In this document: piece after piece, positions 5,361 through 59,459 of the stretch
How positions within the stretch are numbered: position 1 is the first letter of the stretch
Layout: the number at the start of each line of letters is the position of its first letter
DNA from: an uncultured Candidatus Saccharibacteria bacterium
Lineage (GTDB): Bacteria; Patescibacteriota; Minisyncoccia; Phycocordibacterales; CAIZLB01
Reading direction: 5' to 3'
Assembly (NCBI GenBank): GCA_964550955.1
Contig: CAZKAF010000001.1
Location: 7,993-71,992, forward strand
Length of the DNA: 64,000 nt
Made by a program: the position numbers and the translations under genes
The notes under the pieces: model-generated
Told to the model about the DNA's origin: nothing
Databases searched by the model: none
What the model saw: only the letters and a program-made list of their open reading frames with translations

Positions 5361-6638
5361 ATGTCATTTTTCAAAAAAGAAACAGCTAGAGTCTGGAAGG
5401 TCGGCGTCTTTCTGGCATATCGCCAGATAAAGCGCGCGAGCCTTTGGACTACCATGCTGATCATCGCGGTGATGACCCTGACGTTTCTGAACCTCGTGGT
5501 AGTGAACGGCGTTCTGGTGGGCTTGATCGAGAGTTCCATTGACGCGACTCGGGACAGGGGAACGGGCGATGTCGTGATAACGAATTTGCAGCAGAAGAAT
5601 CAGATCGAGCGAAGCCAGGACATCCAAAACGTTCTCAGGAGCTTGCCCGAAGTGAGGGCGTTTTCTGCCAGGTATCTGGGGAACGGAGTCCTGAATGCGG
5701 ACTATCGGCGCCTGCTCAGGCAGGATGAGAGCTCGAACAGCGTCGGCGTGACCGTTGCGGGCATCGACCCGCTCAAGGAGAATTCAATCAGCCGCCTTTC
5801 AGAATACATAGTCGAAGGGTCATATCTCCAGCCGAACGATCCCGACGGCATCCTGATAGGGTCGAATTTCTTATATAAATATACTCCGATAGAGGTTTCA
5901 GGGTTCCAGACGCTGAAAGATGTCGAGATAGGGCAAAAGCTCAAGCTTACCGTCGGGAGCAGCTCGAAGGAGGTTGTCATACGGGGCGTGGTAAGGTCAA
6001 AAGTCGACTCTACGGATTTCCGCGTCTTCATGATCGAAAGCGAGGTCAGGAAAATGATCGGCAGGAGCGAATTGAACGTGAATGAAATTTCCATAAAGCT
6101 TGCGGCCGGGTCTACCGAGCAGGACGCGCTTCGGGTCAAGCAGCTGCTTCTCAATAACGGATTCGATGTCGGCGCGAGAATCCAGACGTATGTCGAGGCG
6201 CAGCCGAAATTCCTGAAAGACATGTCCGACACCTTCGGGCTTCTCGGAAACATGATCGGAAGCATCGGCCTCGCGGTCGCGTCGATCACCATCTTCATCG
6301 TCATATTCGTCAACGCCATCACCAGGAGAAAATTTATCGGCATTCTCAAGGGCATCGGCATCAGCTCGAAGGCGATTGAAATATCGTATATCATCCAGTC
6401 CATTTTCTATGCCGTTACCGGCTCGCTCCTGGGACTCTTGGTTTTGTACGGATTTCTTGTCCCGTACATCCAAGCGAATCCGATCGATTTTCCGTTCAGC
6501 GACGGATACCTGTATGCGCCTATCAACGGGACGATGCTTCGGGTGGTCGCGCTGCTCATCACGACCGTCATCGCGGGATACATACCTGCGAGAATGATCG
6601 TGAAGAAGAACACGCTCGATGCCATCCTCGGAAGATAA
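5361..6638 (+). CDS. ABC transporter permease, FtsX/MacB-like.
   Basis: N-terminal TM helix, a large periplasmic domain, then a C-terminal 3-TM FtsX-like region (IGSIGLAVASITIFIVIFVNAI...). Operon context supports the call. Confidence 0.75.
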   Translation: MSFFKKETARVWKVGVFLAYRQIKRASLWTTMLIIAVMTLTFLNLVVVNGVLVGLIESSIDATRDRGTGDVVITNLQQKNQIERSQDIQNVLRSLPEVRAFSARYLGNGVLNADYRRLLRQDESSNSVGVTVAGIDPLKENSISRLSEYIVEGSYLQPNDPDGILIGSNFLYKYTPIEVSGFQTLKDVEIGQKLKLTVGSSSKEVVIRGVVRSKVDSTDFRVFMIESEVRKMIGRSELNVNEISIKLAAGSTEQDALRVKQLLLNNGFDVGARIQTYVEAQPKFLKDMSDTFGLLGNMIGSIGLAVASITIFIVIFVNAITRRKFIGILKGIGISSKAIEISYIIQSIFYAVTGSLLGLLVLYGFLVPYIQANPIDFPFSDGYLYAPINGTMLRVVALLITTVIAGYIPARMIVKKNTLDAILGR

Positions 6639-6652
6639 CAACAATCAAAACA

Positions 6653-7345
6653 ATGAAACCAGACCTAAAAGAAAACATCATCGTGACAAGGGAATTGAAG
6701 AAGTCTTTCGTCGACGGGGACAAGGTGACCGAAGTCCTCAAGGGAATCAATCTTGAAATCAGGCGAGGGGAGTTCGTGGCGATCATGGGACGCTCGGGCG
6801 CCGGCAAAAGCACGCTGCTTTACCAGGTCAGCCTGCTGGATCATCTTACCTCCGGCGAGATTTACGTTGACGGCGTCCACGTGACGAACCTGCCCGAAGA
6901 CGCGCGCGTCTCCTTCCGCCTGAAAGAACTCGGATACGTGTTTCAGGATTACGCCCTCCTGCCTGACCTGACCGCAAGGGAGAATGTCGCCGTGCCGCTC
7001 ATCATGCAGGGCGTCGAGACTGCCGAGGCATACAGGATAGCGGAACAGACGCTCGGACGAGTCGGCCTCAGCCACAGGGTCGGGAATCTGCCGTCAAAGC
7101 TTTCGGGAGGGGAGCAGCAGCGCGTGAGCATCGCGCGGGCCATCGCGCATAAGCCGAAGATTCTTTTTGCGGACGAGCCGACCGCGAACCTCGATACCGA
7201 GTCATCGGCGCTGATATTGAAAATATTTCAGGAATTGAACGCGGAAGGCCAGACCATCGTCATGGTAACGCATGAAGACGAGTACGGCGCCGCCACCGAC
7301 CGGGTCATTTTCCTCAAGGATGGACAACTTTCGGAAGAAAGGTAA
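6653..7345 (+). CDS. ABC transporter ATP-binding protein, MacB/LolD family.
   Basis: Walker [13 protein letters not shown] signature [14 protein letters not shown], Walker B ILFADEPT and H-loop VTHE. Confidence 0.9.
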
Positions 7346-7465
7346 ACTAGCGGAAGGTCAGGACTTAGAAAAGGATGCCGGGCCTCGTGGCCCGGACGAC
7401 GGATGCGCTTCTATCGAACGCATCCTCTTTTCTTGCATTTGAAAACAAAATAGAAAGAGGTTGTT

Positions 7466-8545
7466 GTGAGCAATGAAAGAATTCAGAATTTACTGGACAG
7501 CGCATCGGGGGGTCCAAACCCCCTGTTCGCGAAAGCCGTCTTCGGCTTCTTGAATGCGGAGGGCGACTCGGCGTACTTCTCGACAGACAGGAGATTGGAG
7601 GCGGGAAGCCGTCCTGTCTCCCGGGAGTCCATCTTTGACGTGGCGTCCATCACCAAGGCTTTCTTGACGGTTCTCTGTCATGTCCTGCGGGAAAAGACGG
7701 AGAAATTCGACAACGATGCCAGGGTTGCCGGCACGCTTGAGATGCGGGGCGCCTTTACGGAGCATTTGACCGTCGGTCATCTGCTTCAGTTTTGCGCCCA
7801 GTTTACGGAAGGAGGGTATCCTACGCAGGATATCATCGCGCGGAAAAAAGGAGGCGGCGTGAGCGGGCTGCTTGAGGCGCTCCGCACATGCGGGCTTTGC
7901 AAGGAGCCGGGGCTGGAATGGACATACGGAAATCCGCATTCCATCCTTCTCGGGGTCTTTCTTGAGCGCGTCATGGGCGCCCCGCTTGAAGTTCTCATGA
8001 ATGAGCACCTCTTCGGGCCGCTCGGCATGGGAAGCACCATGCTGCGTCCCGTGTCCAAGCTGCACAAGGTCGTTCGGTCCCATCCCGACATCCCTCCCGG
8101 CACGATTCATGATCCGACCGCAAGGATAGCCTTGCAGGAAGGAAGGGCGATCGGTTCTGCCGGCTACTTCTCTTCGGCGGAAGACCTGCTCGGCTTTGCG
8201 GGCATGATTCTGAACAGGGGAATGCGCGGGCAGGATCGCATCCTTTCCGAGGAAACGGCGACATCCCTGCATCGGGGAATCCTGCCGAAATTCGGAAACG
8301 GTTTCGGCAAATGGAACGAGTTCAGGAAGAACCTCAGGCCCGAACCGTTCGCCGATGACTCGGCTCTTCACAAGCTGGGTCATACCGGATGCATCGTTTT
8401 CGTTTCCCCGAGGCACGGGGCATGCGGCGCGGTCCTGACGGATTTTCTCATGGCTTCTTCCGGCGACGGAAAAGACAGGAGGCGTCTGTATGAGCTGTTT
8501 GCCCAGCTGGCGACTTCGGCAGGGCTGCATCGGTTCGAAGCCTGA
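7466..8545 (+). CDS. Serine hydrolase of the beta-lactamase/transpeptidase superfamily.
   Basis: S-x-x-K active-site motif in FDVASITKAF. Size is about 360 aa, typical of class C-like esterases/PBPs. Confidence 0.65.
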   Translation: MSNERIQNLLDSASGGPNPLFAKAVFGFLNAEGDSAYFSTDRRLEAGSRPVSRESIFDVASITKAFLTVLCHVLREKTEKFDNDARVAGTLEMRGAFTEHLTVGHLLQFCAQFTEGGYPTQDIIARKKGGGVSGLLEALRTCGLCKEPGLEWTYGNPHSILLGVFLERVMGAPLEVLMNEHLFGPLGMGSTMLRPVSKLHKVVRSHPDIPPGTIHDPTARIALQEGRAIGSAGYFSSAEDLLGFAGMILNRGMRGQDRILSEETATSLHRGILPKFGNGFGKWNEFRKNLRPEPFADDSALHKLGHTGCIVFVSPRHGACGAVLTDFLMASSGDGKDRRRLYELFAQLATSAGLHRFEA

Positions 8546-8565
8546 TCCGTTCTGGTTGGTCCTGG

Positions 8566-8602
8566 CCCCTCGGCGCGCAAACGCGTGCCGAGGGGCTTTC
8601 AT
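8566..8602 (+). terminator. Rho-independent terminator
   Basis: gcccctcggcgcgc-aaacgc-gtgccgaggggc hairpin followed by tttc. Downstream GC drops sharply. Confidence 0.55.
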
Positions 8603-8826
8603 TACCCCTCTAAACCACCGGCTTCAGCCGGTGTGCGCATTTAAAGACAACGTCATATTATGAATACCACCTGATCAAGCGCACGAGTTGCGTTAACTAT
8701 AATTTATAATTATCTTTGCAACAAACACCCAATGTAAGCGTTTCTTGCTGTGCAATAAAAAATCCTAATGCAGCCTTGCGCACAATTTGCGTATTCTGGA
8801 AAAAGTTGTATTATTTATGTCTCACA

Positions 8827-10041
8827 ATGATCAAAAATAATATCGTTTATAGTGAATATTGCAATTATCGATTTAAGCTAAAACGTGCCGAAGGAAGCTA
8901 TCTTTGGGATGAAAATGGCAGGAAATATATTGATTTTACCTCTGGCTGGAACGTGACAAATTTGGGCTGGAATGACCCCGAAATTAATACTGCGATAAAA
9001 GAGCAGGTAGATAAAAACGTGTTCGCGCCTTTGTGGTGTTCTGACGAAATTCAAGAGAAATACGCTCAGAGACTGACAGAGTCCTTGCCCGAACCGCTCG
9101 ATACGTGCATAAAGACAACGGGCGGAACTGAAGCCGTCGAAGTGTCAATTAAAGTTGCTCGGGCTGCCACAGGACGAAAAAAAATTATTGGTTTTAAAAA
9201 CAGTTACCATGGGCAATTGTTCGCCTCGATGGCACTTGGTTTTACAGACAATTTGGTTGAGAAAATTTTACCATTAGTGCCTGAATTTATTCAGATCGAT
9301 TATCCCAGAGACAATGGTGATAAAGAAGTATTGAATAATTTTCTCATGGACCTTGAAAAAAGGATATCAAATCACGATGTCGCGGCAATCGTTACCGAGG
9401 CAAACATGATTACTGGCTGGGGGTCTGCATTCGTCGCGCCGATTGGGTATCTCAAGGCGGTAAGGGATCTTGTTTCAAAATACGGGACCCTGCTGATCGT
9501 TGATGAAGTGGGAACTGGTTTTTCAAGAACTGGAAAATTATTTGCTATTGAGCATGAGAACGTTGTTCCAGATATGATATGTCTCGCTAAAGGCATATCG
9601 AATGGCGGCGGTGCTTTAGGGGCAGTCGTTGGCAGTTTTGACCTTATTAATAATGTGATTGGAGTCACAAACATCATATCTACTTTTGGATGGGTTCCAA
9701 CGGCTTGTGCGGCAGCGCTTAAAACACTCGAGATTCATCAAAGGGACAAGGTGTGGGAGATGGCTGATTCTAAAGGGAGATATCTTTTGTCTGAATTAAA
9801 ATCTAAGCTGGCTAACAATCCAAAGGTTGTCGACGTAAGGGGTGTGGGCATGGAGATTGGAATTGAAATTCCGGTTGATGCGACCCGGTATAATAATATT
9901 ATAGATTTTGCTGCCAAAGAGGGGTTACATTTGACTGGGGATACAGAAAGCGTGATTCAGCTTATGCCGCCTCTCACTATTTCCAAAGAAGATATTGAAA
10001 AAGGCATTGATATATTAGTTAGGACGCTTTCTTCCTGTTAA
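8827..10041 (+). CDS. Class-III PLP-dependent aminotransferase (ArgD/GabT-like), first gene of an AT-rich operon.
   Basis: LIVDEVGTGFSRTGKLFA is the class-III aminotransferase PLP-region signature, alongside the ...GGTEAVE... motif. The ORF opens at 8716 but the likely start is ATG 8827 (MIKNNIV...). Confidence 0.8.
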   Translation: MIKNNIVYSEYCNYRFKLKRAEGSYLWDENGRKYIDFTSGWNVTNLGWNDPEINTAIKEQVDKNVFAPLWCSDEIQEKYAQRLTESLPEPLDTCIKTTGGTEAVEVSIKVARAATGRKKIIGFKNSYHGQLFASMALGFTDNLVEKILPLVPEFIQIDYPRDNGDKEVLNNFLMDLEKRISNHDVAAIVTEANMITGWGSAFVAPIGYLKAVRDLVSKYGTLLIVDEVGTGFSRTGKLFAIEHENVVPDMICLAKGISNGGGALGAVVGSFDLINNVIGVTNIISTFGWVPTACAAALKTLEIHQRDKVWEMADSKGRYLLSELKSKLANNPKVVDVRGVGMEIGIEIPVDATRYNNIIDFAAKEGLHLTGDTESVIQLMPPLTISKEDIEKGIDILVRTLSSC

Positions 10042-10055
10042 TAAAATATTATATT

Positions 10056-11558
10056 ATGCCAAAAAAATTGACGCCGAGACGGAACAAGCAGAGTGGATTT
10101 TTTGATTCTTTGGCAAAGAAGAGGAGTGAGCATGTCTTTGAATGCTCGGATATTAAAACCCTAAAAGGTTTTCTTAAGAGCCATAAAGAGGTTCGTTATC
10201 CTAAAAAGTTTGCGACGACGTTATATATGTGTGGTAGAAAAAAGATTTCTGGGAAACCTAAGCCACTATCTCACGCTGCTATTAAGGTGCGTTTTTATCA
10301 TGACAAACCGATGCATAGGTTTTTTATACCTAATAAAGATGCGGCGTGTATCACCGAGATCAAGACCCGTCCCAAGGATGACTGGGGGAGTACTGTTCGC
10401 CAGAAAGCTCGCTTTGGAGTTGATAGCATTATGAGTTATCGAGACCTAGAAAACGTGTCTGAAGAAGTGCTTTCGGGAAAAAAGATTAAGAAAATCAATA
10501 ATGAGACTGTATCGTTATCCAGGTGTCTTAAAAAGATAGCGAATGAATACAATCTTGTGACGTTTGAGGCTGTAGCGGCGACATCTTACAGAAGGAGGCA
10601 TTTTGACGCGGATAATCATCGAATTACAGTTGATAGTGACATAAAGTATTATCTTACCGCTACCCACGATAGGGATACATTGTTTTCTTTAGCTAGGCGC
10701 AGACCGGGGTTTGTGCTTGAGGTAAAGGTTGAGCATGTTGGTAAAAATCTTAAGAATGACGATGGCGACCATCTTCTAAAGGAGTTAGGGAAAATACCTG
10801 GTTTAATCGCCGAACCAAACAGAAAAGGAGCAGACCTGTTAGACCTTGTGTTACAAAAAGAACATCTTTTCCATGAGCCAGAACTTAAAGCGAAGTCCTC
10901 ATCAGAGTGGCTCGTCACGGAAAGAGAGATGAAGCTGGACGCAGATAACGATTTACGCGTGCAACTTGGTGGTATACGTTTCCCAGAAAATATCGCCGTT
11001 GGGATGATAAGGAAAGACAAAAGTTATCAAAGAATATACAGTCATGGTTCTAATATTGTTTTTTCAATGCAATATAATAAAGACAGCCCACCCTCAAAAA
11101 GGGTTATCAAATATAAGATGAATCTGAAGAGTTCAAGTTCAAAAATTAGCGTCAGACAGGAGACAGTCGAGCGTTATAGTAAAAAGAGGATATCTGAAAT
11201 ATTAGGAAATCCTGTCGATGATAAGTCGACCTTGATAACGTCCTATTTCTTGAGAGACAGAGCTATCTTGTCTGTGTATCTTAGCGACACAGGGAATGTT
11301 TTTGATATTTGCGTGGATGAAGTAAACTTTATTGGTAAGAAAAAAAGTATACCATTACACCAGCTTGAAATTGAGTTTGTTGGAGTAATCGGTGACAAGG
11401 ACGGTAAAAGTTTTATCAAAAACAATGTCAGGACGATTGAGTCCGATTTTATGGTAATTAGGAAAATCATCATGCATGAATATGCTAGATTAGGCATCGC
11501 TCTGCGAGACTCTCATATTACGAAAGCGATTTGGGCGATGAACCAAGTTTCAAGATAA
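10056..11558 (+). CDS. Hypothetical Lys-rich protein. The N-terminal half has a weak CYTH/VTC-like triphosphate-tunnel pattern.
   Basis: Possible tunnel-fold motifs: KVRFY...ACITEIKTRPKD...VRQKARF, YRRRHFDADNHRITVDSDIKYY, FVLEVKVEH and C-terminal LEIEFVG. The assignment is from memory of family patterns, not a search. Confidence 0.45.
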   Translation: MPKKLTPRRNKQSGFFDSLAKKRSEHVFECSDIKTLKGFLKSHKEVRYPKKFATTLYMCGRKKISGKPKPLSHAAIKVRFYHDKPMHRFFIPNKDAACITEIKTRPKDDWGSTVRQKARFGVDSIMSYRDLENVSEEVLSGKKIKKINNETVSLSRCLKKIANEYNLVTFEAVAATSYRRRHFDADNHRITVDSDIKYYLTATHDRDTLFSLARRRPGFVLEVKVEHVGKNLKNDDGDHLLKELGKIPGLIAEPNRKGADLLDLVLQKEHLFHEPELKAKSSSEWLVTEREMKLDADNDLRVQLGGIRFPENIAVGMIRKDKSYQRIYSHGSNIVFSMQYNKDSPPSKRVIKYKMNLKSSSSKISVRQETVERYSKKRISEILGNPVDDKSTLITSYFLRDRAILSVYLSDTGNVFDICVDEVNFIGKKKSIPLHQLEIEFVGVIGDKDGKSFIKNNVRTIESDFMVIRKIIMHEYARLGIALRDSHITKAIWAMNQVSR

Positions 11559-11563
11559 ATATT

Positions 11564-12718
11564 ATGGATACCCGTAAGAACATAAAATATATTCATGATT
11601 TAATCAAGGAATCTAGGAATAAAATTATCGATATCTTGACCGATATCGAGCCGTATTCGATAGCCGAGTTTGAGATTGATTCAGCATGCACCACATTATC
11701 GGAAATCTTGAATAATGTCGACCAAGTCAGGATTGACGTCAAAAGCATCGCGGTATATTTACCCGTCAACCTGCCCCTTTATTCATTGATTCTATACGGT
11801 ATTGTTCCGAGCCTACAAGCTGAAAATGTTTATGTGCGTCCACCAGTAGAGATAGGCGACATTACGAAAAAGATACGTGACTCATTCTTCAAAACAGTCA
11901 AGAACGTGCATGTTGTGGGTTTACCGAGAAGAGCATTTGGAGATGGGTTTACAGCCTGTGCAGACGTCGTAATATTTACAGGTAGGTACGATCCAGCTCT
12001 TGACCTTATAGAAAAATATAATCCGAAACTTTTTATTTATAATGGATCTGGGGTTAATCCAATTATTGTTGCTAAAGGGGCGGACCTGTCATTAGCAGTT
12101 GAAAAAGTGATTCACGCCAGAATCTTTAACGGTGGTCAAGACTGCTGTGCTCCAGATGCCATTTTTGTGGAGGATTCGATTAAGGCAGAGTTTATGTTTT
12201 TGCTGAAGAATCAGGTTGAAAAAATTAATGTCGGCAGTTATAAAGACCCAGATGTGACAGTAGGGAAGATCTTGGACAAGAAATATATTGCATCAGCAAA
12301 GGCTTTCCTCGAGGATAAAGCAGATATGATTGTTTTTGGCGGAAAGATAGATGAAGAGGGCGGGGTTATCTACCCTACCATTATTGATGAGGTAGACCAT
12401 CAAAGATACGATGATTTTCAAGAGCTGTACGCACCCATTTTCAATATTTTAACATTCAAGACACATGATGAGGTCGAGAGGGTACTTAACTCTAGAGAGT
12501 ATCAAGATTTCGCCATGTGCTACTCCATTTTTGGTAATATTAAAATCAATGTCGCCAACACCATTTTGCTTAAAAATCAGACTCTGCTCGATGTCGAAGG
12601 TGGAAATATACCATTTGGCGGTTATGGAAAAAAATCGAGTTTTGTCAGAAAAAATGGCAAAACTTTTCCAAGACCAATCCTTATCCCCTGGGAAATAAAG
12701 ACGATCGCGGAGGCTTAA
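11564..12718 (+). CDS. Aldehyde-dehydrogenase-superfamily protein, short form (ProA/acylating-ALDH-like, N-terminally truncated relative to canonical ALDH).
   Basis: Catalytic-Cys motif NGGQDCCAPD, then GGKIDEEGGVIYPTII and PFGGYGKKSSF (the ALDH PFGG motif). It is about 385 aa versus about 480 for typical ALDH. The ORF opens at 11531 and overlaps the previous gene; ATG 11564 is the likely start. Confidence 0.6.
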   Translation: MDTRKNIKYIHDLIKESRNKIIDILTDIEPYSIAEFEIDSACTTLSEILNNVDQVRIDVKSIAVYLPVNLPLYSLILYGIVPSLQAENVYVRPPVEIGDITKKIRDSFFKTVKNVHVVGLPRRAFGDGFTACADVVIFTGRYDPALDLIEKYNPKLFIYNGSGVNPIIVAKGADLSLAVEKVIHARIFNGGQDCCAPDAIFVEDSIKAEFMFLLKNQVEKINVGSYKDPDVTVGKILDKKYIASAKAFLEDKADMIVFGGKIDEEGGVIYPTIIDEVDHQRYDDFQELYAPIFNILTFKTHDEVERVLNSREYQDFAMCYSIFGNIKINVANTILLKNQTLLDVEGGNIPFGGYGKKSSFVRKNGKTFPRPILIPWEIKTIAEA

Positions 12719-12761
12719 TAATAATATTTTAGGGGTTGTTATAATACGCACATGTATTATA

Positions 12762-14480
12762 GTGATATCAAATATTATGAAAAATGGTGAGATAATTAAG
12801 GAACTACTAATTCGTGCCGCCGAGAGTCAAAATCTTCAAATGAGGGAGGTGTTGGTCATGTTCTCAAACGACCTGTCAAATGGTGACTATTCTTCCAATA
12901 TCGCCCTAGTGGCTGCAAAGGAGATTAAGACTTCGCCTAAGGCTTTAGCTGATAAATTGGTGGCAGCTTTGTATAAAAATGGCCTGCCTAAAGAAGTAAA
13001 AAAGGTAGAAGTAGCCGGCATCGGTTTTATTAATTTCTACCTGTCTTCACGTTATATGGATGAACAGATCAAGGGTATAGTCGATCTGCCGGAAAAATAT
13101 GGCGCATCTTTGATAAATGCCGGCAAGAAAATTCTCGTTGAGCATTCAAGCCCTAACCTTTTCAAACCATTTCACATAGGCCATCTAATGAATAACACTA
13201 TTGGAGAATCAATAGCTAGGCTCGCTCAATTCTCTGGCGCAGAAGTGACAAAAATATCTTACCCTTCGGATATATCGCTCGGGATTGGAAAGGCAATATG
13301 GGCACTTAACCAAGAAGATGCGATAAGGCTTGATTCTTTTGACAGCCTTGAAGAGAAAGTCGCCTTTTTGGGCGAATGTTATGTGCGGGGTACAAATGCT
13401 TTTATTGATAATGTAAACGTTCAACAGCAGGTTAGAGATATAACAAAAAAACTTTATGACAAGGTTCCAGGTGCAGAATTTGACATGTTTGAAAAGTGTA
13501 AAGAATTGAACCTGTCGTATTTCAAGTCTATCATCGAAAAACTTGGTTCAAGTTTCGACTCTTTTATTTTTGAAAGTGAGGCTGGTGTAGAAGGCGAAAA
13601 GATTGTTTCAGAAAATATTGGCAAGGTTTTTGAGAACAGCAACGGGGCAATCATATATAGGGGTGAGGATGAGGGTTTGCATACTAGGGTATTTGTTAAT
13701 CGCGAGGGCTATCCCACATATGAATCAAAGGATATAGGGTTACTTTCATTGAAGTTCAAGCGCTACAACCCAGATATATCAATTTTTGTTACGGATAATG
13801 AACAAAGAGCATATTTTGAGGTTGTTTCTTCTGCCGCAAGTAAGATTGACAAAGATTGGAGCGATAAGACGATACATCTTACTCATGGAAGAATGACATT
13901 TAAAGGCAAAAAAATGTCATCGCGTCTAGGTGGCGTTCCCCTTGCGACGACCATAATAGATGCCGTATCTGAAGAAGTGAAAAGCCGTAAGGAAGATCTG
14001 GATAATAGTAGTGCTGAGGCGATATCAATTGGTGCGGTGAAGTTTACTGTCCTTAGGGTTATGGCAGGAAAAGACATAAATTTTGACCCAGATACGTCAC
14101 TTTCTTTTGAGGGTGATTCGGGTCCATATCTTCAATATACCGCAGTAAGAGCGGCATCAATCCTTAAGAGGGCAAAAGAGGGGAATATGGTCAGTGAGAC
14201 TGTGAATTTTACTGAGGATAGAGATATCAGCAAGGTCGAAAGAATCGTCGTGCGTTTCCCGGAAGTTGTCGATCTGGCCATAAAGGAATGGTCGCCACAT
14301 CATTTGGTAACGTATCTTTTGGAGTTGGCGCAAGCCTTCAACGGTTGGTATGTAAATACAAAAGTATTAGATTCTTCAAATCCATCGATGCAAAATAACA
14401 TCATGTTAACATCGGCTGTATATACCGTAATCAAAAACGGTCTCAGGCTTCTGGGTATCCAAGTTCCTGCGAGTATGTAG
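12762..14480 (+). CDS. argS: Arginine--tRNA ligase
   Basis: HIGH region SSPNLFKPFHIGHLMNNTIGESIARL matches the ArgS pattern (SANPTGPLHVGH...GDSLAR). There is an N-terminal Arg_tRNA_synt_N-like segment, and the C-terminus ends ...PASM as ArgS proteins do. The gene lies inside the AT-rich segment. Confidence 0.85.
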   Translation: MISNIMKNGEIIKELLIRAAESQNLQMREVLVMFSNDLSNGDYSSNIALVAAKEIKTSPKALADKLVAALYKNGLPKEVKKVEVAGIGFINFYLSSRYMDEQIKGIVDLPEKYGASLINAGKKILVEHSSPNLFKPFHIGHLMNNTIGESIARLAQFSGAEVTKISYPSDISLGIGKAIWALNQEDAIRLDSFDSLEEKVAFLGECYVRGTNAFIDNVNVQQQVRDITKKLYDKVPGAEFDMFEKCKELNLSYFKSIIEKLGSSFDSFIFESEAGVEGEKIVSENIGKVFENSNGAIIYRGEDEGLHTRVFVNREGYPTYESKDIGLLSLKFKRYNPDISIFVTDNEQRAYFEVVSSAASKIDKDWSDKTIHLTHGRMTFKGKKMSSRLGGVPLATTIIDAVSEEVKSRKEDLDNSSAEAISIGAVKFTVLRVMAGKDINFDPDTSLSFEGDSGPYLQYTAVRAASILKRAKEGNMVSETVNFTEDRDISKVERIVVRFPEVVDLAIKEWSPHHLVTYLLELAQAFNGWYVNTKVLDSSNPSMQNNIMLTSAVYTVIKNGLRLLGIQVPASM

Positions 14481-14582
14481 GTTTGTTTCGGGTAATTTTA
14501 CTTTTTAAATAAAAGTTGTATGATATTGTCATAAGGAGAAGAACCTTAAAAATCTACAGTCAAAAGACCAACAACTAACCAA

Positions 14583-14593
14583 GGGGGGGGGGG
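14583..14593. repeat. G11 homopolymer tract
   Basis: aaggggggggggggcg read directly from the sequence; intergenic. Confidence 0.9.
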
Positions 14594-14710
14594 CGTCATG
14601 CCTATTGTGGTCCGAGTATCTGCATGCCCGACCAGGGCGAAGAAGGAAGCGTAGAAATCTGTCATAGGCTCACTGCTGCCGTCGAAAGCATCGAGGGGCT
14701 TGAACTCAAA

Positions 14711-14744
14711 TGACCAACCACCAGCTCATCGCTGGTGGTTGGTC
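14711..14744. repeat. Perfect 15-bp inverted repeat with a 4-nt loop (strong stem-loop).
   Basis: tgaccaaccaccagc-tcat-gctggtggttggtca; no clear T-tract follows. Confidence 0.9.
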
Positions 14745-14864
14745 ATTGATAAATTCGGAGATTGTGCTAAAAGTATGATGAATCTCTCAGGCGAACTTGA
14801 TTGTTCGCGGCCAAGTTCATTTGTTAAGCGCATAAAACCATAACCAAGAAAGGGAACACAGAAG

Positions 14865-15227
14865 ATGACTCCAGGCATCAATAGCATCGTCAGGCAGGTT
14901 GAATTCGATGAGGACGTAACTTTTTTGCTGAAGGATCCGCATTCCCGAAGCGAATCAGGGGCGGTGCACTTTCAAGGATTCGTCACGGTCCTCAAGAATG
15001 TGGCAGGGCCCGTTCAGGCGGAGGATGACAAGTGGCTGTTCGGGTTCGTCGTTTCTTTCTTCTCCGATGGGAAGATTCAGTGCGACGTGTATCAGGACGG
15101 CACGATCATCGGTCATCTGACCAGCGATAATCCTTCCGACGTTCCGCTGCCGGAATCAGGCAATGAGCGGCTGTGCAAATACGTCCTCGATGCGATCAGG
15201 AGATATCGCGAGGAAGAGGAAGGCTGA
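14865..15227 (+). CDS. Hypothetical protein (120 aa)
   Basis: Clean ORF with host-like codon usage, followed by a strong terminator. No recognisable motif. Confidence 0.5.
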   Translation: MTPGINSIVRQVEFDEDVTFLLKDPHSRSESGAVHFQGFVTVLKNVAGPVQAEDDKWLFGFVVSFFSDGKIQCDVYQDGTIIGHLTSDNPSDVPLPESGNERLCKYVLDAIRRYREEEEG

Positions 15228-15248
15228 ATTTGCCTGCCGAAAACTTGA

Positions 15249-15296
15249 AAGCCTCGCGTGCGCCCATGCACGCGAGGCTTTTCTTTCGCTTTTTTC
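15249..15296 (+). terminator. Rho-independent terminator
   Basis: 13-bp stem aagcctcgcgtgc/gcacgcgaggctt with loop gcccat, followed by ttctttcgcttttttc. Confidence 0.65.
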
Positions 15297-15368
15297 AGTA
15301 TTTCTGCTATATTTTGACTCACGTGCATATCCGTCGCGGAACCTGCAATGCGTAGCTACACATAATAT

Positions 15369-17279
15369 ATGAATCTTAAAAACATCCGAAACTTCAGCAT
15401 CATCGCTCATATTGACCACGGAAAGTCCACGCTTGCCGACCGCATGCTTGAGCTTACCAATACTATTGAGAAGCGAAAGATGATGAACCAGGTTCTCGAC
15501 AACATGGAGCTTGAACGGGAAAAAGGCATTACGATCAAGATGCGGCCGGTGCAGATGCATTATGCGGTCAAGCCTGATGTCGCCGCCGCGAAAGGCATAG
15601 AAGTGGGCGAGTATCAATTGAACCTCATCGATACCCCGGGCCATATCGACTTCTCATATGAAGTATCCCGCGCGCTCAAGGCGGTAGAGGGTTCCATTCT
15701 TCTGGTTGACGCGACGCAGGGCGTTCAGGCTCAGACATTGACCACGCTTCGAATGGCGCAGGATGTCGGCCTGAAAATTATCCCGGTGCTTTCCAAGGTC
15801 GATTCGCCACTCGCCCGGCTTGATGACATCAAGGAAGAAATGATCTCGCTTCTCGGCTGCGAGCTTGAAGATATCATCGAAACGTCCGGCAAGACGGGGC
15901 AGGGCGTTGAAGGATTGTTGCAGGAAGTCATCAAAAAGATCCCCGCGCCGGTCGAGGAAATCGTTCAGTCCGGAAGCTTCCGGGGCCTCGTCTTCGACTT
16001 TCAATATTCAAATCATAAGGGCGTAATCGTCTTCGTTCGAGTCATGGACGGATCGGTCAAAAAAGGCGACGAGCTGCTTTTCAAAATCGCCGATGAGAAG
16101 TTCTATGCGCTTGAAGTCGGCATCTTCACGCCGGGCGAAGTGGCGACCGGAACTCTCGATGCGGGCCAGATCGGCTACATCGTTACGGGCATCAAGCAGC
16201 CGGGCATCGCATCGGTGGGAGATACCATCACCCTTCTCAAGAAGCCGCTTCCCGAGCTTGCAGGTTACATGAGTCCTTCGCCCGTGGTCTGGGCTTCGGT
16301 GTATCCGGAGGATGCTGACGACTTCGAGCTTCTCAAGCAGGCGCTCGGTCGGCTGAGGCTTTCCGACTCGGCCTTTTCTCATGAGGAAGAATCTTCAGGT
16401 TCTCTCGGGCGAGGCTTCAGATGCGGTTTCCTCGGACTCCTTCACTTGGAAATCATTACTGAGCGACTGAAGCGGGAATTCAATCTCAATCTTGTCATAG
16501 CGACGCCGAGCATTACCTACGAAGTGACGCTCAGGGGCGGATCTCACGGAGCGGCGGTCCAAAACAGCCTGGGAAATATTTATTCCGGGCAAATAAAGGT
16601 GAACGAAGCGGGAGAGAAAACCGTGATGGTATATTCTCCTTCGCTTTTTCCGGACCATGGACAGTACGAACGGGTCAGGGAGCCATGGGTCAAGCTTTCC
16701 ATAATAACGCCGGACGCATACACCGGTCCCATCTATCAGCTCTTATACGATCACGAGGCCGAGCTTCGAGACACCGTCTCGTTCGGCGACGGCCGCGCGC
16801 AGCTTGTCATCGACATGCCGCTTCGGGAGTTGATGAGAAACTTTTTCGATGAGCTCAAGAGCATCTCTTCCGGATATGCGTCCTTGTCATACGAGTTTGA
16901 AGGACTGAGGGATGCGGACGTCACTCGGATGGACGTGCTCGTTGCCGACGAGCCGATTGAGGCTTTCACTAAAGTGGTTGCGAACAGAAGGACGGACGAG
17001 GAGGCGAACAAGACGGTAGACCGGCTTGAAGCCGTGCTTCCTCGGCAGCTTTTCACGACCAAGATTCAGGCGAAATGCAATGGGCGAATTATCGCGTCGC
17101 GAACTCTTTCCGCGCTCAGAAAAGACGTTACCGGATATCTGTACGGAGGCGACATTACTCGAAAGATGAAGCTCCTGGAAAAGCAGAAGAAAGGAAAGAA
17201 GAAGATGCTTGAGCGAGGCAGGGGCCAAGTGAACATCCCGCACGACGTGTTCTTGAAGATGATGAAGACGGGAGAATAA
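15369..17279 (+). CDS. lepA: Elongation factor 4 (LepA)
   Basis: MNLKNIRNFSIIAHIDHGKSTLADR...DNMELEREKGITIK...LIDTPGHIDFSYEVSR...; the LepA-specific C-terminus (...GRGQVNIPHDVFLKMMK) and about 600 aa length. Confidence 0.9.
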   Translation: MNLKNIRNFSIIAHIDHGKSTLADRMLELTNTIEKRKMMNQVLDNMELEREKGITIKMRPVQMHYAVKPDVAAAKGIEVGEYQLNLIDTPGHIDFSYEVSRALKAVEGSILLVDATQGVQAQTLTTLRMAQDVGLKIIPVLSKVDSPLARLDDIKEEMISLLGCELEDIIETSGKTGQGVEGLLQEVIKKIPAPVEEIVQSGSFRGLVFDFQYSNHKGVIVFVRVMDGSVKKGDELLFKIADEKFYALEVGIFTPGEVATGTLDAGQIGYIVTGIKQPGIASVGDTITLLKKPLPELAGYMSPSPVVWASVYPEDADDFELLKQALGRLRLSDSAFSHEEESSGSLGRGFRCGFLGLLHLEIITERLKREFNLNLVIATPSITYEVTLRGGSHGAAVQNSLGNIYSGQIKVNEAGEKTVMVYSPSLFPDHGQYERVREPWVKLSIITPDAYTGPIYQLLYDHEAELRDTVSFGDGRAQLVIDMPLRELMRNFFDELKSISSGYASLSYEFEGLRDADVTRMDVLVADEPIEAFTKVVANRRTDEEANKTVDRLEAVLPRQLFTTKIQAKCNGRIIASRTLSALRKDVTGYLYGGDITRKMKLLEKQKKGKKKMLERGRGQVNIPHDVFLKMMKTGE

Positions 17280-17296
17280 AAAAAACGAAATGATTA

Positions 17297-17340
17297 GGCC
17301 CATAAAGCTCTGCAGAGCTTTATGGGCCTTTTGTTCTTTG
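17297..17340. terminator. Bidirectional terminator: a 34-nt perfect palindrome flanked by an A-run and a T-run.
   Basis: aggcccataaagctctg|cagagctttatgggcct, preceded by aaaaaaaacgaaa and followed by tttgttctttg. Confidence 0.65.
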
Positions 17341-17347
17341 AATTTGA

Positions 17348-17455
17348 TTAAAACAGCGCCGGGATGTACATCAGGATCATCGAGGCGATCAGGATGATGC
17401 AGAGCGTCATCCAGATGAATTTGATGGCTTTCTGATTCTTTGGATTAAATAGCAT
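17348..17455 (-). CDS. Possible small membrane protein (35 aa).
   Basis: Minus-strand MLFNPKNQKAIKFIWMTLCIILIASMILMYIPALF* immediately after the bidirectional terminator. It is the only plausible part of the 202-aa minus-strand ORF that is antisense to the ftsB-like gene. Confidence 0.3.
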   Translation of the reverse strand: MLFNPKNQKAIKFIWMTLCIILIASMILMYIPALF

Positions 17456-17909
17456 GTCGTATATACTATCAATATTTATGAAAGAGTTCCAGCAGAGAAA
17501 CAAGGCGAAAAAAAGGCTATATTCAAAGACGGTTTTGTTCCTGCTTCTCGTCGTGCTCGTTCTTGTGTCGCGCGGGGTGGTAAACGTGTATCTGAAGGAA
17601 AAGGAAAGCCGCATAGAAATGGAGCGGGTGGCCGTGCAAAAAGCCGAGCTTGAGAACAGGTATGGCCAGATAAAGAACCGGGCGGACCATCTCGAAAGCG
17701 ATGCGGGGATAGAGGCGGAGATTAGAAGCAAGTTCGACGTGGTCAAGGAAGGGGAGGGCGTCATCGTCATCGTGGACAAGGAATTGCCCGTGGTCGAGGA
17801 GGATAATCGCGGCGTCTTGAAAAAATTCTGGGATTCGGTCATCGGAGTATTCAGGAAGGATGAGGCGACTACAACAAAGGCTGAAACGGGAAATGTTGTT
17901 TCGGAATAG
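17454..17909 (+). CDS. Septum formation initiator (FtsB/DivIC-like)
   Basis: Short basic N-terminus, a single TM (VLFLLLVVLVLV), a coiled coil (LKEKESRIEMERVAVQKAELENRYGQIK) and a C-terminal IEAEIRSKFDVVKEGEGVIVI resembling the FtsB/DivIC terminus. Confidence 0.6.
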   Translation: MSYILSIFMKEFQQRNKAKKRLYSKTVLFLLLVVLVLVSRGVVNVYLKEKESRIEMERVAVQKAELENRYGQIKNRADHLESDAGIEAEIRSKFDVVKEGEGVIVIVDKELPVVEEDNRGVLKKFWDSVIGVFRKDEATTTKAETGNVVSE

Positions 17910-59454: not shown

Positions 59455-59459
59455 CTCAA

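What the first reader, a model, noticed from the sequence alone, without database searches (positions are those of the whole stretch)
8716..14480. AT-rich four-gene operon: aminotransferase, CYTH/VTC-like protein, truncated ALDH and a dedicated arginyl-tRNA synthetase
About 5.8 kb of visibly lower GC (~35-40% versus ~57% flanks). The four genes are co-directional and tightly spaced or overlapping, sitting between a clean terminator (8566-8602) and a G11 tract plus perfect palindrome (14583-14744). The four genes are a class-III PLP aminotransferase, an unassigned 500-aa Lys-rich protein, a short ALDH-superfamily enzyme and a full-length ArgS. The aminotransferase and ALDH-like reductase resemble the ProA/ArgD type, which builds an amine from a carboxylate via an aldehyde. 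I do not know a described system with this combination. An aaRS copy embedded in a horizontally acquired enzyme operon could mean aminoacyl-tRNA-dependent (Arg-tRNA) biosynthesis, or self-resistance to an ArgRS-targeting compound. It could also be a xenologous replacement of the housekeeping argS.
Basis: partly seen in the sequence, partly recalled or inferred. Interest (0 to 1): 0.75.

Follow-up and report, generated by a model that had tools for sequence, protein, structure and literature searches.

The report
Mobile ArgRS-linked four-enzyme gene cassette
A 5.7-kb block of foreign DNA in a tiny Paceibacteria genome carries an arginyl-tRNA synthetase with three enzymes that recur beside ArgRS or tRNA-Arg genes across bacteria and archaea, which points to an undescribed arginyl-tRNA-linked pathway.

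Summary
Window 8827-14480 (+) holds four tightly spaced genes:
- a class-III aminotransferase;
- a 500-aa tandem triphosphate-tunnel (VTC/CYTH) protein;
- a 384-aa ALDH-like protein;
- a full-length ArgS.

Their GC3 is 0.39-0.40, against 0.57-0.76 for most other large ORFs in the window.

The block is an insertion. A close syntenic Paceibacterota relative has 1 kb at this site. A second metagenomic contig carries exactly the same four genes (80% nt identity) in different flanks.

The combination is not coincidental. AT, TTM, ALDH-like and ArgS (or an ArgS-derived protein) co-occur, in shuffled order, in at least seven lineages.

The ALDH-like family lies next to a bona fide argS in 19 of 78 species-representative loci. 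These span CPR, DPANN archaea, Nitrospirota, Actinomycetota and Proteobacteria. Another 14 loci have a degenerate ArgS paralog instead. tRNA-Arg genes sit inside three of these clusters.

The family keeps the catalytic Cys but lacks the hydrolytic Glu (Asn, Phe or Tyr instead), so it cannot act as an ordinary aldehyde oxidiser.

My best reading, inferred at about 0.4, is an ArgRS/Arg-tRNA-fed reductive pathway analogous to GluRS-GluTR-GSAM. The ArgS could also be a self-resistance copy. I could not test whether the genome holds a second argS. I found no description of this system.

The parts
8527..15283 (.). Segment with no counterpart in the syntenic relative L091 (GCA_036405975.1). That genome has 1.03 kb with two small unrelated ORFs between the beta-lactamase-like gene and lepA.
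   Evidence: blastn synteny: window 1-8526 and 15284-18187 match L091 at 72-84% nt, and nothing matches between them.
8787..14479 (+). The transferred four-gene block. One colinear match (79.9% nt over 5.7 kb) to contig L001, where the flanks are entirely different.
   Evidence: In L001, ArgS is followed by a dNK-like gene and IleRS, the conserved Paceibacteria context.
8827..10041 (+). Class-III (omega-type) PLP aminotransferase, 404 aa. A longer ORF from TTG 8716 is possible.
   Evidence: PF00202, E 1e-90, with no NCBIfam equivalog cutoff reached. The best solved relative is T. thermophilus acetylornithine/acetyl-lysine aminotransferase 1vef; the LAKG(I) stretch, which I take to hold the PLP lysine (own knowledge), is aligned. 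It is 43-57% identical to the AT of the other TTM-type clusters.
10056..11558 (+). Tandem triphosphate-tunnel-metalloenzyme protein, 500 aa, pI 9.7. The N-terminal half is VTC-like. The C-terminal half is CYTH-like, with ExExK at E289/E291/K293.
11564..12718 (+). ALDH-superfamily protein, 384 aa. It has the catalytic Cys194, the oxyanion Asn69 and Glu287, but Asn160 in place of the general-base Glu. I read it as a non-hydrolytic reductase or acyl-transfer type.
   Evidence: PF00171, E 1e-31. Residue mapping against 6k0z and 3pqa. Subfamily alignment. In 81 family members: Cys 81/81; general-base position N39, F20, Y9, E5.
12777..14480 (+). Full-length arginyl-tRNA synthetase, 567 aa, Paceibacteria type.
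   Evidence: TIGR00456, 328 bits against cutoff 262, with the N-terminal, catalytic and DALR domains. 55-69% identical to Paceibacterota ArgRS. The HIGH and MSSR motifs are intact and identical to stand-alone relatives.
8565..8602 (+). Terminator hairpin of the upstream beta-lactamase-like gene; left edge of the variable segment.
   Evidence: I7.
14583..14747 (.). G11 tract (14583-14593) and 17-bp perfect palindrome (14709-14747) in the spacer to the right of the block. Role unknown.
   Evidence: I2.
8801..8814 (+). Left copy of a 14-nt direct repeat, AAAAGTTGTATKAT. The right copy is at 14511-14524, so the pair brackets the block. This may be chance.
   Evidence: D6. Two-copy short repeats are often chance.

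Best explanation
**What it is (shown).** A horizontally transferred operon-like cassette. It belongs to a widespread, undescribed set of gene clusters built around a Glu-less ALDH-like enzyme paired with ArgRS, with ArgS-derived tRNA-binding proteins, or with tRNA-Arg genes.

**How it most likely works (inferred).**
1. ArgRS makes Arg-tRNA(Arg).
2. The ALDH-like enzyme attacks the activated ester with its conserved Cys. Lacking the water-activating Glu, it does not hydrolyse the thioester. It reduces it with NAD(P)H to an arginine-derived alpha-amino aldehyde. This is the chemistry GluTR performs on Glu-tRNA.
3. The class-III aminotransferase converts the aldehyde to an amine, or isomerises it as GSAM does.
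4. The basic tandem-TTM protein spends a nucleoside triphosphate or triphosphate on the product or on the tRNA. It takes the place held by a Pol-beta nucleotidyltransferase in sister clusters.

The end product would be an arginine-derived amine, or a phosphorylated or nucleotidylated derivative of it.
For: **Insertion and co-transfer of the four genes**
-.

**Co-occurrence of AT, TTM and ALDH-like with ArgS or an ArgS-derived protein**
- Seen in the window, L001, L037, L088, L090 and L094. L002 has AT, TTM and ALDH-like but no ArgS on its 11-kb contig.
- Gene order is shuffled, and TTM identity falls to 25-32%.

**ALDH-like family beside argS**
- 19 of 78 species loci from at least eight phyla have a true argS (TIGR00456, 308-487 bits) within a few kb.
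- 14 more have a degenerate ArgS paralog. It keeps the N-terminal domain, which binds tRNA in ArgRS (own knowledge), and has lost HIGH.
- My estimate of the chance expectation is at most about 1.5 loci.

**Further ArgS-derived pieces in the clusters**
- Stand-alone Arg_tRNA_synt_N or DALR proteins occur in L094, L090 and L024.

**tRNA genes**
- tRNA-Arg(UCU) genes lie inside L010, L011 and L027.
- A tRNA-like gene with a 6-nt anticodon loop (AACUAA) and an encoded CCA lies upstream of NRPS-ArgS-NTase-ALDH in L032.

**ALDH-like active site**
- Catalytic Cys 81/81; the general base is replaced.
- In ALDH6, Glu-to-Asn is reported to block thioester hydrolysis (PMC12041015).

**Analogy from ArgS-free relatives**
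- In these, the ALDH-like gene directly follows an AMP-forming ligase. The family therefore pairs generally with adenylate-forming enzymes.

**NTase and TTM**
- The Pol-beta NTase (24 loci, often fused to the ALDH) and the tandem TTM (7 loci) never occur together.

**State of the cluster ArgS**
- All cluster ArgS keep their catalytic motifs.

**Precedent**
- The C5 pathway: GluTR plus GSAM acting on tRNA-bound glutamate (PMC6399207).
Against: - There is no biochemical evidence of any kind.
- I know of no ALDH-fold enzyme that acts on aminoacyl-tRNA.
- The ALDH-like protein is acidic (pI 5.3), which is not typical of a tRNA binder.
- Its second Rossmann glycine and the K192 equivalent are altered, so cofactor use is uncertain.
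- The aminotransferase resembles ArgD, LysJ, GabT and putrescine aminotransferases rather than GSAM.
- Half of the ALDH-like loci have no ArgS. In Paceibacteria the argS beside the cluster sits in a conserved SmpB-ArgS-IleRS neighbourhood, so part of the association could be inherited synteny.
- The role of the TTM is a guess.
Confidence: 0.4

Rival explanations
1. Self-resistance. The three enzymes make an arginine analogue or arginyl-adenylate mimic that inhibits ArgRS, for example a reduced, then phosphorylated or nucleotidylated arginine derivative. The co-transferred ArgS is the insensitive or extra target copy that protects the producer. This can coexist with the tRNA-dependent model.
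For: - argS travels with the enzymes as one block.
- The close relative without the island must carry its essential argS elsewhere, so the host lineage had a native copy (inference).
- Large-genome carriers such as Nocardia, Magnetobacterium and a Bathymodiolus symbiont have argS inside the cluster, and it is likely a second copy.
- BGC-encoded ArgRS acting as immunity is documented for tiarins (bioRxiv 10.64898/2025.12.02.691738).
- NTase or GNAT fusions to the ALDH-like enzyme are compatible with nucleotide-linked warheads and acetylation immunity.
Against: - The window ArgS is near-identical in its catalytic motifs to stand-alone Paceibacteria ArgRS.
- In several Paceibacteria the cluster sits next to what looks like the housekeeping argS, in conserved synteny.
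- The degenerate ArgS paralogs and the isolated N-terminal or DALR domains cannot aminoacylate, so they cannot serve as replacement targets.
- No exporter was identified next to the window cassette in the ORF and domain scans.
Confidence: 0.2
2. A tRNA-independent, ProB/ProA/ArgD-like route. The TTM activates a side-chain carboxylate as an acyl phosphate, the ALDH-like enzyme reduces it to a semialdehyde, and the aminotransferase makes a diamino acid such as ornithine or diaminobutyrate. The product feeds arginine or polyamine metabolism. argS is merely co-regulated with arginine-related genes.
For: - The aminotransferase's best relatives are ArgD, LysJ, GabT and putrescine aminotransferases.
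- Glu-less ALDH-superfamily reductases of acyl phosphates exist, for example the ALDH18/ProA family (PMC12041015).
- Vtc4-type TTMs transfer the gamma-phosphate of ATP. This rests on my own knowledge plus the fold match.
- argS of a relative lies among arginase, Orn/Arg decarboxylase and deoxyhypusine synthase genes.
- A DDAH/ADI-family gene abuts the cluster in L090.
Against: - It does not explain the catalytically dead ArgS paralogs, the isolated tRNA-binding domains or the tRNA-Arg genes in the clusters.
- I know of no TTM that phosphorylates a carboxylate.
- No ProA or ArgC model appears among the 25 best of 42 NCBIfam matches.
Confidence: 0.15
3. A tRNA(Arg) maturation, modification or repair module. 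The TTM (an RNA-triphosphatase-like fold), or the Pol-beta NTase, methyltransferase and MBL hydrolase of sister clusters, act on the ends of tRNA-Arg. The ALDH-like enzyme and the aminotransferase make a small-molecule donor.
For: - The TTM fold also matches the Cet1 and Pct1 RNA triphosphatases.
- The TTM is basic, pI 9.7.
- Sister clusters carry an NTase, a SAM methyltransferase and an MBL-fold gene.
- tRNA-binding ArgS pieces and tRNA-Arg genes are present.
Against: - The best fold matches are polyphosphate polymerase and PPPi-ase, not RNA enzymes.
- I know of no tRNA modification that needs an ALDH plus a transaminase.
- The same ALDH family works in PKS/NRPS clusters with no tRNA component.
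Confidence: 0.1
4. An ordinary housekeeping segment. The four genes are functionally unrelated neighbours, and the low GC is local noise.
For: - The ArgS is a normal full-length enzyme of the host's own phylum.
Against: - There is a sharp GC3 step.
- A relative has an empty site.
- The identical four-gene block occurs in other flanks.
- The same families co-occur repeatedly across phyla.
Confidence: 0.03

Closest known systems
C5 pathway: GluRS, glutamyl-tRNA reductase (HemA), glutamate-1-semialdehyde aminomutase (HemL)
   Same: The proposed logic matches. An aaRS charges a tRNA. A Cys enzyme reduces the aminoacyl ester to an alpha-amino aldehyde with NADPH. A class-III PLP enzyme processes the aldehyde (PMC6399207). 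The genes here are an aaRS, a Cys-dependent reductase-type enzyme and a class-III aminotransferase.
   Different: The amino acid would be Arg, not Glu. The reductase candidate has an ALDH fold and is unrelated to GluTR. The aminotransferase is closer to ArgD, LysJ and GabT than to HemL. A tandem TTM is present that the C5 pathway lacks. Nothing has been shown biochemically.
ProB/ProA/ArgD and the LysW-carrier route (LysZ/LysY/LysJ): carboxylate to acyl phosphate to semialdehyde to amine
   Same: A Glu-less reductase followed by an omega-aminotransferase. The best solved relative of the AT is the T. thermophilus acetylornithine/acetyl-lysine aminotransferase 1vef, which I take to be the ArgD/LysJ enzyme.
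   Different: There is no amino-acid kinase and no ATP-grasp enzyme; a TTM would have to activate the carboxylate. LysY and ArgC belong to a different (GapDH-like) superfamily. The link to ArgRS and tRNA has no counterpart.
aaRS genes inside biosynthetic clusters as immunity (tiarins/ArgRS; also mupirocin/IleRS and indolmycin/TrpRS, from my own knowledge)
   Same: An aaRS gene co-inherited with enzymes on a mobile block. Resistant ArgRS copies are documented (bioRxiv 10.64898/2025.12.02.691738).
   Different: No RiPP precursor, YcaO or other tiarin genes. The ArgS shows no divergence in its motifs. Many sister clusters carry non-catalytic ArgS fragments instead.
Vtc4 polyphosphate polymerase and CYTH/TTM enzymes (YgiF, class IV adenylate cyclase, thiamine triphosphatase, Cet1)
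   Same: The tunnel fold, and ExExK plus basic and acidic tunnel residues conserved in both halves.
   Different: It is a soluble two-tunnel protein with no SPX or membrane domain. It belongs to a rare family of about 54 representatives, always seen so far next to the ALDH-like gene. Its substrate is unknown.
ALDH6 methylmalonate-semialdehyde dehydrogenase and other acyl-transferring or reductive ALDHs (ALDH20, LuxC, ProA)
   Same: The catalytic Cys is kept and the general-base Glu is replaced by Asn or another residue, which prevents hydrolysis of the thioester (PMC12041015).
   Different: No NCBIfam or Pfam subfamily assignment. It is shorter at the N-terminus. It partners with aaRS, AMP-ligases or NTases rather than CoA enzymes.
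tRNA-utilising small peptide aldehyde pathway (livipeptin, PMC10548850)
   Same: An arginine-derived aldehyde combined with an aminoacyl-tRNA-using step. L032 places an NRPS A-T-C module next to ArgS-NTase-ALDH.
   Different: There the aldehyde is made by an NRPS reductase domain, and the tRNA enzyme is an L/F-transferase. No homologous genes are present here.

Membership tests
Arginyl-tRNA synthetase (TIGR00456 / class Ic aaRS) | Whole-protein score above the curated equivalog cutoff, with the N-terminal, catalytic and DALR domains | tested here: met
   328 bits against cutoff 262; PF03485, PF00750 and PF05746 all present.
Arginyl-tRNA synthetase (TIGR00456 / class Ic aaRS) | HIGH signature and MSxR/KMSK-region motif | tested here: met
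   PFHIGH and KKMSSR, identical to stand-alone Paceibacteria ArgRS.
Arginyl-tRNA synthetase (TIGR00456 / class Ic aaRS) | tRNA-dependent arginine activation and aminoacylation | not testable with these tools
   Needs an enzyme assay.
Hydrolytic NAD(P)+ aldehyde dehydrogenase (PF00171) | ALDH domain, catalytic Cys and oxyanion Asn | tested here: met
   PF00171, E 1e-31. Cys194, Asn69 and Glu287 align with 6k0z and 3pqa.
Hydrolytic NAD(P)+ aldehyde dehydrogenase (PF00171) | General-base Glu (ALDH2 Glu268) that activates water for deacylation | tested here: not met
   Asn160 in the window protein. Across the family: N39, F20, Y9 and only E5 of 81.
Gamma-glutamyl-phosphate reductase ProA (ALDH18) | Match to a ProA model | tested here: not met
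   Not among the 25 best of 42 NCBIfam matches, and no model reached its cutoff. The resemblance is limited to being a Glu-less, Cys-dependent ALDH.
Glutamyl-tRNA reductase (HemA) | Homology to the GluTR fold | tested here: not met
   The only Pfam families found for the reductase candidate are Aldedh and a weak LuxC match. The claim is 'works like', not 'is a member'.
Class-III PLP aminotransferase (PF00202) | Full-length domain match and PLP lysine | tested here: met
   E 1e-90 over profile positions 9-403. LAKGIS aligns with LAKALG of 1vef; I take this to be the PLP-lysine motif (own knowledge).
Class-III PLP aminotransferase (PF00202) | Assignment to a specific enzyme (ArgD, GabT, BioA, HemL and so on) | tested here: not met
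   All NCBIfam equivalogs are far below cutoff, and HemL is not among the best 25.
Triphosphate tunnel metalloenzyme (CYTH/VTC) | Eight-stranded tunnel fold | tested here: met
Triphosphate tunnel metalloenzyme (CYTH/VTC) | ExExK motif and conserved Arg/Lys/Glu tunnel residues | tested here: met
   E289-x-E291-x-K293, with R23, E25, R79, K103, K117, R180, E222, K224, K354, E438 and E440 invariant in 23 sequences.
Triphosphate tunnel metalloenzyme (CYTH/VTC) | Pfam VTC (PF09359) sequence match | tested here: inconclusive
   The window protein has no Pfam hit. 18 of 23 family members hit VTC. The profile hits Vtc2 at E 7.6e-5.
Triphosphate tunnel metalloenzyme (CYTH/VTC) | Polyphosphate polymerase or triphosphatase activity | not testable with these tools
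   Needs an enzyme assay.
Horizontally acquired genomic island | Compositional break, absence from a syntenic relative, and the same block in another context | tested here: met
   No integrase or clear att sites were found.
Known anti-phage defence systems (PADLOC) | Any of the four proteins matching a defence model | tested here: not met
   No hits for all four.

The most novel reading that the evidence does not exclude
The Glu-less ALDH-like family is a second, evolutionarily independent class of aminoacyl-tRNA reductase, after GluTR. Together with ArgRS or ArgS-derived tRNA-binding proteins, it would found a widespread Arg-tRNA-dependent pathway in CPR bacteria, DPANN archaea and scattered other phyla. 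Its arginine-derived aldehyde would be transaminated, then phosphorylated (TTM clusters) or nucleotidylated and methylated (NTase clusters). The product might be an arginyl-adenylate-like antimetabolite.
Probability: 0.3. Interest if true: 0.85.

Novelty: new variant of a known kind. Interest (0 to 1): 0.72.

Why it matters
tRNA-dependent metabolism outside translation is known from only a handful of systems: the C5 pathway, transamidation, cell-wall and lipid aminoacylation, and a few natural products.

- **A new reaction partnership.** A conserved cluster coupling ArgRS/tRNA-Arg to a thioester-forming but non-hydrolysing ALDH would add a new enzyme class to that list.
- **A function for the TTM family.** It would give a first functional context to a rare family of tandem triphosphate-tunnel proteins.
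- **Metabolism in reduced genomes.** It would point to an unrecognised arginine-derived metabolite in CPR bacteria and DPANN archaea. The arginine-derived product would still be worth identifying under the self-resistance reading or the tRNA-independent rival.
- **Gene transfer.** The window shows an aaRS gene being transferred between Paceibacteria as part of a metabolic cassette.

All of this is directly testable with four recombinant proteins and Arg-tRNA.

Tried and rejected
- **Phage DNA hypermodification.** The dCTP deaminase, ThyX-like, Tmk, deoxyribosyltransferase and MazG genes beside the cassette in L001 suggested this. I rejected it. The other flank is IleRS in conserved Paceibacteria synteny, and a scan of viral contigs with the ALDH profile found nothing.
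- **Known defence system.** No PADLOC hits.
- **Riboswitch, T-box or other leader.** Rfam finds only three tRNAs in the window.
- **First AF2 model of the TTM.** With 3 sequences it was unusable (pLDDT 52). I repeated it with 23 sequences.
- **Metagenome scans for more TTM loci.** The scan that ran gave one weak locus.
- **'NrtL'.** This is an ArgS-related NCBIfam name. The literature search returned only unrelated uses, and the window ArgS scores 81 bits against a cutoff of 340.
- **A JGI-named 'lysyl-tRNA synthetase' ALDH fusion (P0282).** I checked it as a possible aaRS-ALDH Rosetta stone. Pfam sees only the ALDH domain.
- **Flanking att sites or an integrase.** Only a 14-nt two-copy repeat was found, which may be chance.
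- **A second argS.** None in the 64-kb window.
- **Literature.** Five searches found no description of this gene combination.

Full report
**1. The observation**

Window 8716-14480 contains four co-directional ORFs.
- Gene calls on identical metagenomic contigs put the starts at 8827, 10056, 11564 and 12777.
- That leaves gaps of 14, 5 and 58 nt, which is operon-like.
- Pfam and NCBIfam assign three of the four: Aminotran_3 (E 1e-90), Aldedh (E 1e-31) and ArgS (TIGR00456, 328 bits, cutoff 262, all three ArgRS domains). The 500-aa protein gets no hit.
- The four genes have GC 0.39-0.41 and GC3 0.39-0.40. Most other large ORFs of the window have GC3 0.57-0.76.

The only corrections concern start codons and the word 'truncated'.

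**2. It is an insertion, and the four genes move together**

The host is a Candidatus Paceibacterota (CPR) bacterium. Its LepA falls in a 90%-identity cluster with a protein of that name, and the window lies on a 696-kb contig.

A close relative, L091 (GCA_036405975.1), shows what the site looks like without the island.
- It is colinear with window 1-8526 and 15284-18187 at 72-84% nt identity.
- Where the window has 6.8 kb, it has only 1.03 kb with two small unrelated ORFs.

A second contig, L001, shows that the four genes travel as a unit.
- It shares one uninterrupted 5.7-kb match (79.9% nt) with window 8787-14479. That span runs from 40 nt upstream of the aminotransferase start to the ArgS stop, and the flanks are entirely different.
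- In L001 the block is followed by a dNK-like gene and IleRS, and the contig is low-GC from about 3.7 kb onward, including IleRS.
- The order SmpB, c47, [ALDH cluster], ArgS, c86, IleRS recurs in other Paceibacteria: L013, L031 and L067, and partly in L037.

I conclude that an L001-like low-GC Paceibacterium is the donor type. The AT-TTM-ALDH-ArgS block was copied as a unit into a new site of a higher-GC Paceibacterium. No integrase was found. The only candidate boundary repeat is a 14-nt two-copy match.

**3. The ArgS**

- It is an ordinary Paceibacteria ArgRS. It is 85% identical to the L001 copy and 55-69% identical to hundreds of Paceibacterota ArgRS.
- Its HIGH and MSSR regions are identical to those of relatives that stand alone (L005, L007).
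- Those relatives live in 36-39% GC genomes.
- Nothing marks it as neofunctionalised.
- Whether the host also keeps a native argS is unknown. The window has none, and it also lacks the SmpB-IleRS neighbourhood where Paceibacteria usually keep argS.
- The island-free relative must have argS elsewhere. This is inference.

**4. The 500-aa protein**

- It belongs to a very rare family. The word-indexed search of 5.8 billion clusters found 3 proteins, and a profile search of 1.84 billion found 54 representatives.
- Charged residues are invariant in both halves of a 23-sequence alignment. The N-terminal half has R23, E25, R79, K103, K117, R180, E222 and K224. The C-terminal half has E289-x-E291-x-K293, K354, E438 and E440.
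- 18 of 23 members hit Pfam VTC, and the profile hits yeast Vtc2.
- With that alignment AF2 gives pLDDT 88.4 and pTM 0.87.

It is therefore a soluble tandem triphosphate-tunnel metalloenzyme with both tunnels apparently competent, and it is basic (pI 9.7).

**5. The ALDH-like protein**

- Alignment to solved ALDHs shows that the oxyanion Asn (N69), the catalytic Cys (C194 in GQDC) and the E399 equivalent (E287) are present.
- The general-base Glu is Asn160, in the motif N-G-x-G-x-N-P.
- In 81 family members the Cys is invariant. The general-base position is N (39), F (20), Y (9) and E in only 5.
- A recent review states that replacing this Glu by Asn in ALDH6 removes the catalytic water. That prevents thioester hydrolysis, so the acyl group is passed to another acceptor. 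The review also notes that reductive ALDHs (LuxC, ALDH20, ProA) lack the residue too (PMC12041015).

The enzyme should form a Cys-thioester but not hydrolyse it. It is a reductase or acyl-transfer type, not an aldehyde oxidiser.

**6. Comparative genomics**

A scan of one genome per GTDB species with the ALDH-like profile returned 78 loci. I clustered their ORFs and annotated representatives. Three architectures emerged.

(a) *ArgS-linked clusters, 19 loci.*
- They come from Saccharibacteria, Paceibacteria, Gracilibacteria, Jorgensenbacteria, Woesearchaeota, Nanohaloarchaea, Ca. Magnetobacterium, Bdellovibrionales, two Pseudomonadota (one a Bathymodiolus symbiont) and Nocardia.
- A bona fide argS (TIGR00456, 308-487 bits) lies within a few kb of the ALDH-like gene, mostly directly adjacent and in either orientation.
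- A Pol-beta nucleotidyltransferase usually accompanies it, either separate or fused to either end of the ALDH.
- A SAM methyltransferase is often present, and sometimes an MBL-fold protein.
- Nocardia has ArgS, ALDH, an ArgS-catalytic-domain paralog, a methyltransferase and an NTase.
- Magnetobacterium adds separate Arg_tRNA_synt_N and DALR proteins.
- The symbiont puts an NRPS A-T-C module in front.

(b) *Saccharibacteria-type clusters, 14 loci.*
- These are mostly Saccharibacteria. The neighbour is a 336-483-aa protein that matches ArgS residues 36-318 (hhalign probability 97.9).
- It keeps the N-terminal domain but has lost HIGH.

(c) *PKS/NRPS-type clusters.*
- These occur in Paenibacillus, Bacillus, Streptomyces, Amycolatopsis and Bradyrhizobium and have no ArgS.
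- In the Paenibacillus-type clusters the ALDH-like gene directly follows an AMP-forming ligase.

By my estimate, chance would put argS within 10 kb of a given gene in fewer than about 2% of loci. The observed figure is 24%, or 42% when the ArgS-derived paralogs are counted.

**7. The window's own variant**

The TTM family was followed separately.
- L088 has APH, TTM, ArgS and ALDH.
- L090 has radical SAM, NUDIX, AT, ALDH, TTM and an ArgS_N-only protein, with a DDAH/ADI gene and a recombinase/Prim-Pol element beside them.
- L094 has a 94-aa ArgS_N protein, TTM, ArgS, AT and ALDH.
- L037 has AT, TTM, ALDH and ArgS. L002 has AT, TTM and ALDH.
- The aminotransferases of these clusters are 43-57% identical to each other, apart from L037 (33% to the window AT). 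The TTMs are only 25-35% identical.
- None of the seven TTM clusters has the Pol-beta NTase, and none of the 24 NTase clusters has the TTM. This suggests that the two NTP-using proteins fill equivalent slots.

**8. tRNA genes**

- ARAGORN finds tRNA-Arg(UCU) inside three ArgS-ALDH clusters: L010, L011 (between ArgS and the methyltransferase) and L027.
- In L032 a tRNA-like gene lies immediately upstream of the NRPS-ArgS-NTase-ALDH cluster. It has a 6-nt anticodon loop (AACUAA) and an encoded CCA.
- Among the eight tRNA or tRNA-like genes found in 25 ArgS-, ArgS_N- or TTM-linked loci, three or four are of the Arg type.
- The window's own tRNA-Arg(CCU) at 18816 lies outside the island and is shared with the relative.

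**9. Mechanism**

*Shown:* the families, the active-site state, the mobility, and the conserved association with ArgRS, ArgS fragments and tRNA-Arg.

*Inferred:*
- The ALDH-like enzyme partners with adenylate-forming enzymes (ArgRS or an ANL ligase) and needs an activated acyl donor.
- For ArgRS, the released activated product is Arg-tRNA(Arg). From my own knowledge, ArgRS needs tRNA even to activate arginine.
- The non-catalytic ArgS paralogs and the isolated N-terminal or DALR domains make sense as adaptors that recognise tRNA-Arg.
- I therefore propose that the Cys attacks Arg-tRNA, the thioester is reduced to an arginine aldehyde, and the class-III aminotransferase converts that aldehyde.
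- This is the logic of GluRS, GluTR and GSAM (PMC6399207), achieved with an unrelated fold.
- The TTM (the NTase elsewhere) would then phosphorylate or nucleotidylate the product, or act on the tRNA. This step is the weakest.

*Against the proposal:*
- there is no biochemistry;
- the ALDH-like protein is acidic;
- its Rossmann motif is altered;
- the aminotransferase is ArgD/GabT-like rather than HemL-like;
- part of the adjacency in Paceibacteria may be inherited synteny.

I give the pathway model 0.4. The statement that this is a mobile, functionally coupled ArgRS-linked cassette I hold at about 0.85.

**10. Rivals**

- *Self-resistance (0.2).* BGC-encoded ArgRS immunity is now documented for tiarins. 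A reduced and nucleotidylated arginine would resemble an arginyl-adenylate analogue. However, the ArgS motifs are unchanged, and dead ArgS fragments cannot replace a target. This rival is compatible with the main model.
- *A ProA/ArgD-like, tRNA-independent route (0.15).* This fits the aminotransferase and the arginine-related neighbours. It does not explain the tRNA-related parts.
- *A tRNA-Arg processing module (0.1).*
- *Coincidence (0.03).*

**11. Novelty**

Five full-text searches found no description of an ArgRS/ALDH/TTM/aminotransferase or ArgRS/ALDH/NTase cluster. Every family member that carries a database name is called only 'aldehyde dehydrogenase family protein', 'acyl-CoA reductase-like' or something similarly generic.

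I class it as a new variant of a known kind, namely aaRS-containing or tRNA-linked metabolic gene clusters. There is a real chance, about 0.3, that it hides a categorically new enzyme activity: an ALDH-fold aminoacyl-tRNA reductase.

Noticed in passing
window 58231-61487 (+), next to tRNA-Gln 58073-58144: A second low-GC island (GC 0.31-0.33, GC3 0.27-0.28) encoding a SIR2-like protein and a HerA ATPase. Both match PADLOC SIR2 and HerA models strongly (473 and 844 bits). This is a SIR2-HerA anti-phage defence pair in a CPR genome, inserted beside a tRNA gene.
   Followed up: partly
window 24842-25234 (+): A small low-GC ORF (130 aa, GC 0.37, GC3 0.33) with a weak NYN-domain match, in a low-GC stretch at 24.5-26 kb. 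It may be another small foreign insert.
   Followed up: partly
window 8801-8814 and 14511-14524: A 14-nt direct repeat, AAAAGTTGTATKAT, brackets the four-gene block. It could be a remnant of the insertion or a repeated promoter-like element, or it could be chance.
   Followed up: no
window 14583-14593 and 14709-14747: A G11 homopolymer and a 17-bp perfect palindrome lie in the spacer right of the island. The adjacent 120-aa ORF (14865-15227) has host-like GC but no similarity to the ORF at the same place in the relative L091.
   Followed up: partly
window 18888-20530: A further segment without a counterpart in the syntenic relative L091. It includes the 424-aa ORF at 19068-20342.
   Followed up: no
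L001 11373-13544; L013 16798-20262 (also L031, L037, L067): The Paceibacteria IleRS carries a histidine-phosphatase (His_Phos_1) domain inserted into the catalytic domain, an unusual aaRS architecture.
   Followed up: no
L032 4348-4423: A tRNA-like gene with a 6-nt anticodon loop (AACUAA) and an encoded CCA, directly upstream of an NRPS(A-T-C)-ArgS-NTase-ALDH cluster in a Bathymodiolus methanotrophic symbiont. It could be a dedicated non-translational tRNA-Arg-like adaptor.
   Followed up: partly
L018-L038, L075 (mostly Saccharibacteria): A degenerate ArgS paralog (336-483 aa, N-terminal domain kept, HIGH lost) sits next to the ALDH-like gene. Histidine-kinase-like ATPases, arrays of up to four single-domain response regulators and two unknown conserved proteins lie alongside.
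   Followed up: partly
L041-L078 (Paenibacillus, Bacillus): A conserved biosynthetic cluster: FabG, AMP-ligase, Glu-less ALDH-like, ThDP enzyme, ketosynthase, FabA and a roughly 2170-aa megasynthase. It uses the same ALDH subfamily without any ArgS. I did not identify the product.
   Followed up: no
L007 1-9701: In a relative, the ArgS (62% identical) lies directly after genes for arginase-family proteins (two), Orn/Arg decarboxylase and deoxyhypusine synthase. This is arginine and polyamine genes clustering with argS.
   Followed up: no
L090 11547-15232: The AT-ALDH-TTM-ArgS_N cluster abuts a serine recombinase and a Prim-Pol/AAA_25 gene, which suggests it rides on a mobile element there.
   Followed up: no
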